Positions 33,001-36,000 of a stretch of DNA of 64,000 bases are shown in pieces. The stretch spans positions 213,820,005 to 213,884,004 of the forward strand of contig NC_092370.1 in assembly GCF_030028105.1 (NCBI RefSeq), written 5' to 3'. Source of the DNA: Mobula birostris (Eukaryota). How positions within the stretch are numbered: position 1 is the first letter of the stretch; every line of letters begins with the position of its first letter. The position numbers were made by a program.

Positions 33001-36000
33001 AGGGGATATAGCGTGCAAATGGTGGATTCATCTACCAATCATCTCAGCCAACCATGTCCTCACAAATCTGGCCCCCTGACCTTCTCACAAACAAGCCCAA
33101 TTTGGCTTGTTGGTTGTTGTATTTCACTGTTATAAATGCCATTCCCACAGGAGTTATCTTATCTCCAGTGTAAGTTGTAAGTTGGATATCTGCAGTTTTC
33201 AGTTCATTTTTTTTTTCTGTCTGACCTACATGCTCATTGTAGGTGTCCTACTTTGTGGCATTTTCTGCAATTTTCACATTTAATCCTGTATTGGGCTGGT
33301 GTATGTGAGCCCTGCCACAATGGTAACACAATTTGTTCAGTCAGACTGGTTTCTGTTTAAACATTGCAATTTTGCTCAACTCATTCTTGGCTGCATTTCT
33401 GTCTGCAGTTTCCATTGACACAGCTACTTCAACTGCTTTTTTGAAAGTAAGTTGTGCTTCAGTTAGGAACCAATTTTGAAAGCTTTCCTGTAAGATTCCA
33501 CAAGCTAACCAATCTCTCAGTGTATCATTCAACCCAATGAACTGACAATGCTGAGATAATCTCTTCAATTCAGCGATGTAGACTGAAATGAAATTCCCTT
33601 CTTTTGATTCCACCTAAAGCATTGTACAATCAACAATGCTTTCAGTTCTAAATGTTCCTGCATTACTTTCAAGATAGCAGCAAAGCTCATTTTGGCTGGT
33701 TTGATTGGAGTAGTCAAACTTCTAAGCAAGCTGTATGCCTTTAAATCTAATGCACCCAGCAAAATTGGCACTTGCTTCTCATCAGCTATTCCATTTGCTT
33801 TAAAATACTGCTTAACTTGCTCTGTATAAAATATCCAGTTACCTGCTGTGTAATCAAATGCAGCAAGCTTTCTGATGTAACCTGCCACCTCTCCTCTTTT
33901 TTTATGATTATCATCGCCCTGTACTTATTGTTTATGAACCTGTGAACTCATCCATTTTCTGTCTTTTTAAAAATTGTCATTTCCTCTCCTGTGAAGAAAG
34001 AGTGCTGCCCATTTTTTAAAATTTGAATGTATTGCTCTGCTTTTTTTAACTTGAACATCTCACTGTGCTTCAATAAGTAGGTAGTCATCTTGGCTTTGTT
34101 TAAAACTTCCTTTTTGCCACTGTTATGCTTTGTAACTCCAAAACATTAAACAAAATTAAAGTAAAGCACAGAGCCAGGAAAATCTTAGTTTTGTCTTTAC
34201 TTTAAGTGAGATGCACACGTATGGTGTGGTGACATAATGACATATGCCATTTACATACTTTTAAATATAACCCACGGTGCATTATGTAAATAACAAAGAA
34301 TGCTAAATCAACAATTTATTTGTAACATTATCCAAATGTTACTGAAGTATTAAATGCACAATATCATCCTTCATTATCCTTAGCATTTGTTGGCATTTAA
34401 AAGTAATGATCATGGGGTTACTTAAAGAAAAGATGAGAGACAGACGTGCAGAGGGGGGTTGAAAGCAGAGGGTCACAAGTTAACAAGTGTGCAAGTGAAT
34501 ATTGTAAGCCATCGGGTAACTAGACGCATAAATATTTGGGTCTCTGCAATCATTCAAGAAACCATTTGTGTCTTTGATGAGGACAGCCTTAGAGGAACCG
34601 CCAAAGGGCTTTTGGATGGAGAGTATTGTAGGAGCAATTTACGAGTCCTTTTGAGCTCTGGAGAAAATAGTTGATGAAAGAATTGCATTATATTATTAAT
34701 TCACAGCCCTACTGAGTAAATTTATGTCCCAGTTGTAGATCATCACCAATGTCAATCATACCAACAGTTGACTGTATTTTTCCAGCAATGATTCTTATGG
34801 AAATTGTTTTTGTTAACAAGGACAAAGGTAAAACGCCCATTTATTGGCAAATGTTTAATGATAATGTCTTTCTTGTTTTTGCAGCAGTTAACTGAACTAA
34901 TAACATGTCTAAACTCTACTCATGGAGAATTAAAATATTTATATACAATATCAACGTTGAATTGCTGAAGGTGTGCCTTTACCTTCTGAGGTATACCTAA
35001 CAATTTCCCCGAACTGCTCTCAGTGCTCAAAGAGTCCCTGAGTTGTCCAAAATAGCATCCTAAGCTGCAAAATCATTTTGGCCCATACTTAACTCAGACT
35101 GCCATACAATATCTTTAACTGACTACCAAAGCCTTCAGCAAAATGCAACCCACAGACTTTGAACCCATTTAAATGTTTTTTCTCCAATGGCCATTAGCTC
35201 CATTTTCACACACAAAATGCTGGAGGAATTCAGCAGGTCTGGCTGCACCTATAGAAACAAATAGCGCTGGTGTTTTGGGCAGAGAAGGGTCTCAGCCTGA
35301 AATGTTGACTCTTTATTCCTTTCCATAAACTCTGCCTGACCTGCTGAGTGCAAAAGCATTTTGTGTGTGTTACTCTGGATTTCTATCATCTTCAGAATCT
35401 CTTATGTTTATGATTAACTGCATTTCCAATTTGGATTTATTGCTATTCCTCCTGCAACAGACACATATGGTTTGTATAAATATAATTCTCAATTTTGAGT
35501 ACATTTTTTCATTTAAAATTAATATATACAGCAGAGTTGAGATAGAAATTAAAATGCATTATGAAACCTAGTGAAAATTTAAGTCTGTGCTCATACTTAC
35601 AGCTATAACCATCTTATATTTGGAATCATTTGAAACATTAAGCCCAGGAAGCTAATGATGTGGAAGAGTTCTCGTCTGATTTTTGGGATTCTTCAATGGG
35701 ATATTTGAAAGATATTGCAGCAGTAACTGGGCTGACCATAATTTCTGCCCTGTTCCTTTTAAACTGGTTTTAAGATTTGAAACATGACATTTGCAATTTC
35801 CTCAACAGTGGGAACGTTATTTTATCTATTTTTAGAATTTTTTATGCAGATTAGGTCGTCCACCCGCTCTCAGAATGCTTTCAAATCTTGGCTCCCTGGC
35901 TGTTTCAATTTATAAGTCAGCTTCCTCATACAAACACGCACTTGTAATTCCACTTTCAAAATTGTTTTTCTACATCTTCAGCATCTACATAGGACATCCA

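What the first reader, a model, noticed from the sequence alone, without database searches (positions are those of the whole stretch)
35208..35410. Recurrent about 200-bp palindromic mini-elements made of two inverted PLE termini joined at the hammerhead
Seen: at 10820-11036, 24820-25065, 35208-35410 and 41925-42110 a minus-strand terminal module directly abuts a plus-strand one. The junction falls in or next to the hammerhead; at about 35270-35310 it lies in stem II. They look like MITEs but are built from retroelement ends. Established: PLE insertions often carry inverted terminal segments. Inference: the ribozyme region is a hotspot for the strand switch during PLE integration, or the hairpin unit amplifies as its own family. 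Transcripts would form long dsRNA hairpins.
Basis: partly seen in the sequence, partly recalled or inferred. Interest (0 to 1): 0.68.

Follow-up and report, generated by a model that had tools for sequence, protein, structure and literature searches.

The report
Head-to-head Penelope retroelement end pairs
Four roughly 200-bp inverted pairs of the 3' end of a Penelope-like retrotransposon sit in a ray genome; they are the smallest form of an insertion pattern already described for these elements, so they are largely ordinary.

Summary
At all four loci a minus-strand copy of a retroelement 3' module meets a plus-strand copy head-to-head. A profile built without these loci finds 7 of the 8 arms. 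The module is the 3' end of a Penelope-like element (PLE): the longer copies run upstream into a zinc-finger plus GIY-YIG ORF, and three young copies carry an intact minimal hammerhead. All four junctions fall within consensus 1018-1063, which spans the ribozyme.

The interpretation needs correcting in four ways:
- Inverted 5'-truncated copies, an optional 30-40 bp tail and palindromic junctions are already published for PLEs.
- The hotspot is the 5' edge of the ribozyme, not the scissile bond. Two non-inverted copies flanked by target-site duplications start there too. Two larger inverted pairs join elsewhere.
- The four junctions all differ, so a self-amplifying hairpin family is not supported.
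- Only two of the four units still fold as hairpins.

Only unit C has a target-site duplication around the whole pair. The genome-wide survey was not possible, because no eukaryotic DNA collection was available.

The parts
35207..35285 (-). Unit C, minus arm: PLE 3' module, consensus 1044-1124. It has no tail and lacks the whole CUGAYGA box.
   Evidence: nhmmer E 4.3e-12; 60 of 80 identical to the consensus
35284..35411 (+). Unit C, plus arm: PLE 3' module, consensus 1038-1166, with the tail.
   Evidence: nhmmer E 2.7e-24; 98 of 130 identical
35193..35208 (.). Left copy of a candidate 16-bp target-site duplication around the whole of unit C.
   Evidence: 13 of 16 positions match 35413-35428; 5 of 300 random placements scored as well
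35413..35428 (.). Right copy of the candidate target-site duplication of unit C.
10816..10938 (-). Unit A, minus arm: consensus 1035-1162, with the tail. It keeps most of the decayed ribozyme.
   Evidence: (91 of 135 identical)
10935..11032 (+). Unit A, plus arm: consensus about 1060-1162. It starts within about 3 nt of the predicted ribozyme cut site.
   Evidence: (71 of 102 identical)
24821..24968 (-). Unit B, minus arm: consensus about 1028-1164, with the tail. A (TG)n/G-rich expansion interrupts it.
24966..25068 (+). Unit B, plus arm: consensus about 1018/1028-1122, without the tail.
   Evidence: (67 of 106 identical)
41919..42018 (-). Unit D, minus arm: consensus 1052-1156. It starts at the GAAA box.
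   Evidence: E 0.0092; 71 of 107 identical
42014..42125 (+). Unit D, plus arm: consensus about 1021/1028-1144.
   Evidence: Weak: blastn to C; 50 of 78 identical; profile that includes the arm itself
8787..9668 (-). Large head-to-head pair, minus arm: consensus 268-1165. It contains the GIY-YIG ORF at 9227-9691.
   Evidence: nhmmer E 3.3e-281; Pfam GIY-YIG E 8e-4, 20.1 bits, below the 22.6 cut-off
9669..10657 (+). Large head-to-head pair, plus arm: consensus 1-505 and 667-1167. The junction is at 9668|9669, far from the ribozyme.
15594..15840 (-). Second large head-to-head pair, minus arm: consensus 835-1075.
15839..16274 (+). Second large head-to-head pair, plus arm: consensus 581-1121, without the tail.
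23485..23621 (-). Non-inverted short copy starting at consensus 1030, flanked by a perfect 13-bp target-site duplication.
18462..18581 (+). Non-inverted short copy starting about 15-20 nt upstream of the ribozyme core. An 11-bp perfect direct repeat flanks it (18451-18461 and 18582-18592).
   Evidence: Sequence
55171..55198 (+). Intact minimal hammerhead (C3 to position 17) in a young long copy. The same motif occurs at 10526-10553 and 39431-39458.
   Evidence: Descriptor scan: 3 hits in the window, 0 hits in 200 Markov simulations

Best explanation
Each unit is one old insertion of a Penelope-like retrotransposon in its smallest form: two 5'-truncated copies of the element's 3' module placed head-to-head.

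Shown: the module runs from the minimal hammerhead to the reverse-transcription start region and carries an optional 30-40 nt tail.

Inferred mechanism: the element's GIY-YIG/RT protein cuts both strands of the target. Each free 3' end primes a cDNA at one of two internal start sites, which gives an arm with or without the tail. Both cDNAs stop at the 5' edge of the ribozyme module. The two like-sense cDNA ends are then joined there, helped by the self-complementary helices of the ribozyme region.

The units are not a family that copies itself as a hairpin. Their ribozymes are now dead.
For: PLE IDENTITY.
- Longer copies of the same module continue upstream into an ORF with a CX4CxxC finger and a GIY-YIG motif.
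- The best protein matches are ray proteins, at 89% and 84% identity. One relative passes the Pfam GIY-YIG cut-off.
- Three copies carry intact minimal hammerheads. [quoted passage not shown]

ARCHITECTURE.
- There are 6 exactly abutting head-to-head pairs, against 0.67 expected, and no abutting same-orientation pair.
- 3' ends fall in two groups, near 1121-1136 and near 1144-1169. This matches the published optional tail and the two RT start sites (Frangieh 2024, main text read; Craig 2021).
- In C and B one arm has the tail and the other does not.
- A 16-bp duplication flanks the whole of C. Its size is in the range of the 11- and 13-bp duplications of the solo copies.
- The two arms of each unit are similarly diverged from the consensus: A 70%/67%, B 63%/72%, C 75%/75%, D 64%/66%.

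PUBLISHED BASIS.
- An anole PLE protein cleaves and extends both DNA strands in vitro.
- An inverted 5'-truncated copy adjacent to the element, and palindromes at the inverted junction, have been described.
Against: - A target-site duplication was found for only 1 of the 4 units. A, B and D score no better than random placements.
- The test for shared derived bases gives no excess within units: 21 observed against 10.9 expected within units, and 116 against 57.4 between units. Common origin of the two arms is therefore not shown by sequence.
- One nearby inverted pair (18259-18361 minus, 18462-18581 plus) is two separate events, because the plus copy has its own duplication.
- The joining step and the role of the ribozyme's palindromes are inference. 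The cDNA fold of a young module is not better than shuffles (z -1.33, 26 of 200).
- Why cDNAs should end at the 5' edge of the ribozyme is unexplained.
- Everything rests on one 64-kb window.
Confidence: 0.55

Rival explanations
1. A single event, but made by fold-back self-priming. One cDNA reaches the 5' edge of the ribozyme. Its 3' end snaps back on the ribozyme's own helices and copies itself, producing the second arm.
For: - Arkhipova 2013 (passages) interpret the palindromes at inverted PLE junctions as self-priming.
- In the predicted fold of a young module's cDNA, the 3' end is paired through helix I.
- A has arm ends at 1035|1060-63 and D at 1052|1021-28, each with a 4-nt overlap. That fits a 3' end annealing about 25 nt back.
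Against: - A fold-back on a target-primed cDNA leaves a hairpin-capped break that still has to be resolved.
- It does not by itself explain a duplication around the whole pair (C), or arms that differ in having the tail (B, C).
- The large pairs are asymmetric by more than 250 nt.
- The fold is not better than shuffles.
Confidence: 0.2
2. Two independent short PLE insertions that landed in opposite orientation next to each other, for example because the element prefers to cut its own sequence.
For: - The pair at 18259-18361 / 18462-18581 is of this kind.
- No duplication was detected around A, B or D.
- There is no excess of shared derived bases within units.
Against: - In 6 pairs the arms abut with a 2-4 nt overlap or a 5-nt gap, always head-to-head and never in tandem.
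- C's duplication encloses both arms, with none between them.
- An insertion into an older copy should split that copy and leave its remainder on the far side. That is not seen.
Confidence: 0.12
3. A MITE-like hairpin family: one ancestral palindromic unit that amplified as a unit, with its centre later eroded differently at each locus.
For: - The sizes are similar (about 190-250 bp) and all four centres lie in the same 45-nt stretch.
- Palindrome centres are prone to deletion (general knowledge).
Against: - There are four different junction architectures, and the presence of the tail differs between units.
- Matches between units are short: 57-60 nt at 75-77%.
- Every arm scores better against ordinary long PLE copies than against arms of other units, except D's plus arm, whose best partner is C's plus arm.
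- Solo copies with the same 5' end exist.
Confidence: 0.06
4. Chance similarity or an assembly artefact of inverted repeats.
For: Craig 2021 note that PLE inverted structures cause assembly problems.
Against: - The arms are 63-75% identical to the consensus and differ from each other, so they are not collapsed or mirrored reads.
- Profile E-values go down to 2.7e-24.
- 0 of 20000 random placements reach 6 pairs.
Confidence: 0.02

Closest known systems
Inverted pseudo-LTR / inverted 5'-truncated copy of Penelope-like elements (Evgen'ev and Arkhipova 2005 and Arkhipova 2006 as cited in Craig et al. 2021, PMC8557442; Arkhipova et al. 2013, PMC3846280)
   Same: Both have a head-to-head orientation. 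Both carry an optional 30-40 bp tail, often at one end only. In both, the target-site duplication surrounds the whole insert. Both show small palindromes or overlaps at the inverted junction, and a hammerhead inside the repeated segment.
   Different: In the published cases the inverted segment sits upstream of a direct pLTR plus ORF. Here the pair stands alone with no ORF, and each arm is only about 80-150 nt. In the passages I read, the junction is not mapped onto the ribozyme.
Dual minimal hammerheads on opposite strands in Schistosoma mansoni (Cervera and De la Pena 2014, PMC4209133)
   Same: These are minimal PLE hammerheads lying close together on opposite strands, attributed to truncated PLEs.
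   Different: They are reported at about 100-700 bp apart with no junction analysis. Here the arms abut, and in 3 of 4 units at least one ribozyme is cut by the junction.
L1 twin-priming inversions
   Same: A second priming event on the other target strand produces an inverted segment within one insertion, flanked by one target-site duplication.
   Different: In twin priming the inverted piece is an upstream part of the same RNA. Here both arms are 3'-terminal modules, each with its own RT start site at the outer end.
Non-LTR retrozymes (Cervera and De la Pena 2020, listing only; Li, Clavereau and Pollet 2026 preprint: abstract and most of the Results (part 1 of 2))
   Same: They are short non-coding derivatives of PLE terminal regions that carry type I hammerheads.
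   Different: Retrozymes are head-to-tail tandem arrays. No tandem array overlaps a PLE module in this window.
MITEs
   Same: They are short, non-coding and palindromic, with a flanking duplication (seen here for C only).
   Different: The arms here are retroelement 3' ends rather than transposase-binding terminal inverted repeats. There is no shared unit structure between copies.

Membership tests
Penelope-like elements (endonuclease-containing) | GIY-YIG endonuclease domain in the element's ORF | tested here: met
   The ORF at 9227-9691 (minus), directly upstream of the module, has a Pfam GIY-YIG match at E 8e-4. Its 20.1 bits are below the 22.6 cut-off. A 43%-identical relative, P0008, passes at 26.8 bits. 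The motif can be read in the translation.
Penelope-like elements (endonuclease-containing) | Telomerase-like reverse transcriptase in the same ORF | tested here: inconclusive
   All copies in the window are 5'-truncated. The longest one (1080-2262) extends upstream and matches a ray protein at 67% identity over 124 residues, but no RVT_1 domain lies in phase with a PLE copy.
Penelope-like elements (endonuclease-containing) | Inverted and/or tandem 5'-truncated copies, and an optional 30-40 bp tail | tested here: met
   There are 6 head-to-head pairs. 3' ends cluster near 1121-1136 and near 1144-1169. No tandem (pLTR-ORF-pLTR) copy is present in the window.
Minimal hammerhead of metazoan PLEs (Cervera and De la Pena 2014) | CUGANGA and GAAA boxes, helix II with G10.1-C11.1, one unpaired nucleotide between 9 and 10.1, a short helix I, a palindromic 15.2-16.2 pair, and no helix III | tested here: met
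   Three motifs in long copies meet all of these in my own descriptor, with 0 hits in 200 Markov simulations. None of the 8 arms of the four units meets it. Self-cleavage was not tested.
Rfam hammerhead families (types I-III, HH9, HH10) | Score at or above the family's gathering threshold | tested here: not met
   There is no hammerhead match at gathering level. There is none at E<=10 on the whole window, on 101 nt around an intact motif or on unit C. This is expected for a motif without helix III.
MITE | A family of near-identical short units with terminal inverted repeats recognised by a DNA transposase, and a fixed-length target-site duplication | tested here: not met
   The four junctions differ, similarity between units is weak, and the arms are retroelement ends. 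Only four units could be examined.
Non-LTR retrozyme | Head-to-tail tandem repeats, each with a hammerhead | tested here: not met
   TRF reports 3 rows in the window, and none overlaps a PLE module. There are 0 abutting same-orientation pairs.
microRNA precursor families | Rfam score at or above gathering | tested here: not met
   A gives MIR1507 at 24.8 bits (gathering 73), mir-77 at 24.5 (83) and mir-641 at 23.5 (100). C gives mir-505 at 15.4 (60). These matches reflect hairpin shape only.

The most novel reading that the evidence does not exclude
The minimal hammerhead of PLEs may serve at the DNA level as the joint-former of integration. Two cDNAs primed from the two cut strands have the same sense, so they can pair only where the sequence is self-complementary. 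Helices I and II and the palindromic 15.2-16.2 step of the ribozyme supply that pairing at the 5' edge of the minimal template. This would give the enigmatic, poorly cleaving ribozyme a structural role and would explain why short inverted pairs meet there.
Probability: 0.12. Interest if true: 0.7.

Novelty: new member of a known kind. Interest (0 to 1): 0.3.

Why it matters
The step that completes PLE integration is still unknown; Frangieh 2024 call the later steps 'yet to be validated'. Minimal head-to-head pairs are the simplest natural products of that step. Each consists of two RT start regions, one joint and one target duplication.

If a genome-wide survey in rays confirmed that joints and solo 5' ends pile up at the 5' edge of the ribozyme rather than at its cut site, two things would follow. 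It would argue against self-cleavage as the determinant of copy ends. It would also point to a template boundary or an annealing role for the ribozyme region.

For annotation, these units should be masked as PLE fragments. They should not be called MITEs or microRNA hairpins.

Tried and rejected
- Rfam at gathering level and at E<=10, on the whole window and on two sub-regions, gave no hammerhead. I replaced it with a descriptor written from the 2014 paper.
- Nearest-partner scoring of arms: each arm is closer to less-decayed long copies than to its own partner, so the result is uninformative at this age.
- The shared-derived-base test gave no excess within units. By eye I had thought the arms of A, B and D shared private variants. 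The count does not support that, and I dropped the claim.
- The target-site duplication search was negative for A, B, D, both large pairs and most long solo copies.
- The search for perfect palindromes at the six junctions found only 4-7 bp hairpins, which is nothing decisive.
- Folds of a young module as cDNA and as RNA were not better than shuffles.
- Self-cleavage as the origin of copy ends: only A's plus arm (1060-63) and one fragment (20577-20627, about 1059) start near the cut at 1060|1061. I rejected this as the general cause.
- The literature search on elasmobranch repeats and the D. virilis TE paper gave nothing on inverted PLE joints.
- One paper search was rejected for a syntax error and re-sent in corrected form.
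Full report
WHAT THE WINDOW IS.
The 64-kb window has no N and is dense in transposon remains. These include several RVT_1 ORFs, a Gypsy-like integrase/chromodomain/RNase H block and a DDE_1 fragment. The ORF next to the repeat in question finds its best relatives in rays: Mobula hypostoma at 89% identity and Hypanus sabinus at 84% (12 proteins with E<=0.001 among 151 candidates). I take the window to be from a batoid ray, not from human.

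THE REPEATED MODULE.
- blastn of the four reported units against the window gave 37 rows. They show that the right-hand arm of unit C recurs at about ten places.
- The better-preserved copies are much longer. A self-comparison and an alignment of 8 copies give a 1170-nt consensus.
- Its upstream part encodes a CX4CxxC finger followed by a GIY-YIG motif. The Pfam match is at E 8e-4 and below the curated cut-off. A 43%-identical relative passes the cut-off.
- About 350 nt of pyrimidine-rich non-coding sequence follow, and then the module of interest.
- Landmarks on the consensus: helix I 5' strand 1028-1032, CUGAYGA 1033-1039, one unpaired A at 1040, a 4-bp helix II with a tetraloop 1041-1052, GAAA 1053-1056, a palindromic CG step, the predicted cut after 1060, and the helix I 3' strand 1061-1065.
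- This is the 'minimal hammerhead' that Cervera and De la Pena (2014) described for metazoan PLEs. [quoted passage not shown]
- A descriptor I wrote from those features finds three intact motifs in the window, all in young long copies, and none in 200 Markov simulations.
- Rfam has no match at any threshold, not even on 101 nt around an intact motif. This fits a motif without helix III.

3' ENDS.
- 3' ends fall into two groups, near 1121-1136 and near 1144-1169.
- This corresponds to the optional 30-40 bp 'tail' of PLEs (Craig 2021, passages).
- It also fits the two adjacent internal reverse-transcription start sites measured for an anole PLE (Frangieh 2024, main text).

CHECKING THE OBSERVATION.
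- A profile built only from long and solo copies finds abutting minus and plus hits at A, B and C, and the minus arm at D (7 of 8 arms).
- D's plus arm is weak. It is seen, (50 of 78 identical) and with a profile that includes the arm itself.
- All four units are head-to-head: the 5' ends meet and the 3' ends point outward.
- Joints, given as minus-arm end | plus-arm start: A 1035 | 1060-63 (4-nt overlap), B about 1018-28 on both sides (about 5-nt gap), C 1044 | 1038 (2-nt overlap), D 1052 | 1021-28 (4-nt overlap).
So is the statement that C's joint lies at stem II.
- Among 24 mapped pieces there are 6 abutting head-to-head pairs, 1 tail-to-tail pair and 0 same-orientation pairs. Random placement gives 0.67 head-to-head pairs on average and never 6 in 20000 trials.

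WHAT QUALIFIES THE OBSERVATION.
- The ribozymes in the units are dead or cut. No arm passes the descriptor.
- Only A and C still fold as long hairpins: z -5.42 and -4.98, with 0 of 200 shuffles as good. B and D do not: z +0.70 and -0.08.
- The other two head-to-head pairs are large and join elsewhere: 8787-9668 | 9669-10657 at consensus 268|<=1, and 15594-15840 | 15839-16274 at 835|581.
- The same 5' boundary is used by copies that are not inverted. The copy at 23485-23621 starts at 1030 and has a perfect 13-bp target duplication. The copy at 18462-18581 starts about 15-20 nt upstream of the core and has an 11-bp perfect duplication.
- In all, 13 of 24 pieces start within 1012-1063. The 13 are the 8 unit arms, these 2 solos, the minus copy at 18259-18361 and 2 small fragments.
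- Five of those values (1028-1031) lie close to the start of my second profile, so they are upper bounds. For B and D the joint itself bounds them.
- Only A's plus arm and one fragment start near the predicted scissile bond.

ONE EVENT OR TWO?
- For C, a 16-bp direct repeat (13 of 16 matching) flanks the whole pair. 5 of 300 random placements score as well.
- C's left arm lacks the tail and its right arm has it, as expected if each arm started at one of the two RT start sites.
- For A, B and D, no duplication stands out.
- The two arms of each unit are about equally diverged from the consensus.
- A count of shared derived bases shows no excess within units: 21 observed against 10.9 expected. 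Between units the figures are 116 against 57.4, the same twofold ratio. Sequence alone therefore does not show common origin.
- One neighbouring inverted pair, about 100 bp apart (18259-18361 and 18462-18581), is two events, because the plus copy has its own duplication.

HOW IT MOST LIKELY WORKS.
- Published: PLE insertions often have an inverted 5'-truncated copy next to the element and a tail at one end (Craig 2021).
- Published: inverted junctions carry palindromes, which have been read as self-priming (Arkhipova 2013).
- Published: a purified anole PLE protein cleaves and extends both strands of the target and starts reverse transcription at two internal sites. Its hammerhead is protein-assisted and not needed for insertion in vitro (Frangieh 2024).
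- Inference: the units are products of priming on both target strands, with both cDNAs ending at the 5' edge of the ribozyme module.
- Inference: two such cDNAs have the same sense and can pair only through self-complementary sequence, which the ribozyme helices provide. This would favour joints there.
- Fold-back of a single cDNA through the same helices is the main alternative. It fits the 25-nt asymmetry of A and D.
- I cannot say why cDNAs end at that edge. It could be an RNA 5' end, a stall at the boundary of the protein-bound module, or something else.
- A pyrimidine tract plus CAG lies just upstream. In D. virilis the PLE intron ends at the 5' end of helix I. I did not follow this up.

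COMPARISON AND NOVELTY.
- The kind is known: the inverted PLE copy.
- What I did not find in print is a mapping of inverted joints, or of solo 5' ends, onto the ribozyme. I looked in the listings and in the passages read.
- The nearest statements are 'dual min-HHRs ... in opposite strands' at about 100-700 bp and 'palindromes at the inverted junction'.
- Supplements were closed and may hold more.
- A hairpin family, a retrozyme (no tandem arrays) and a microRNA family (all Rfam scores far below gathering) are not supported.
It could not be run here, because no eukaryotic DNA collection was available.

Noticed in passing
window 14911-16274: This is a three-arm complex. A plus copy (14911-15596, with the tail) ends exactly where a minus copy begins. 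That minus copy lacks its last ~90 nt (consensus 1075 at 15594) and then meets a plus copy head-to-head at 15839/15840. No remainder of the minus copy was found left of 14911.
   Followed up: partly
window 18259-18361 (minus) and 18462-18581 (plus): A fifth inverted pair of short PLE modules lies about 100 bp apart. The plus copy has its own 11-bp perfect target duplication, so these are two separate insertions. The spacer contains a further ribozyme-like fragment around 18425-18445.
   Followed up: partly
consensus about 1079-1086 and 1139-1146, e.g. window 55217-55281: In the RNA fold of a young module, the tail pairs with a segment upstream of the tail-less end. This encloses the first 3'-end cluster in a stem-loop, which recalls the stem-loop where the anole PLE starts reverse transcription (Frangieh 2024). 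The fold as a whole is not better than shuffles.
   Followed up: no
consensus about 1011-1026, e.g. window 55150-55166: A pyrimidine tract ending in CAG lies just 5' of helix I and looks like a splice acceptor. Cervera and De la Pena 2014 report that the D. virilis PLE intron ends at the 5' end of helix I.
   Followed up: no
window 31695-32568: A 27-bp tandem array of about 30 copies with 77% matches. It is open in several frames (ORF 31630-32568, 313 aa) and has no Pfam family of note.
   Followed up: no
window 16846-17539 (minus) and 38855-39530 (plus); also 45239 / 15840 and 54726 / 15839: Several long copies share nominal 5' ends on the profile (457 and 457; 833 and 835; 571 and 581). These may be further truncation hotspots, or only alignment breaks at low-complexity stretches.
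   Followed up: no
window 53755-54291 (plus) and 21320-21673 (minus): ORFs here match Pfam ALKBH8_N (E 1.7e-16 and 5e-4). The first lies just downstream of a PLE endonuclease fragment (53755-53912). They are probably part of another repeat rather than a host gene.
   Followed up: no
window 10881-10973: Unit A gives sub-threshold matches to three microRNA precursor models (E 0.29-5.7, scores 23.5-24.8 against gathering 73-100). This reflects hairpin shape only, but such loci could be miscalled as microRNA genes.
   Followed up: yes
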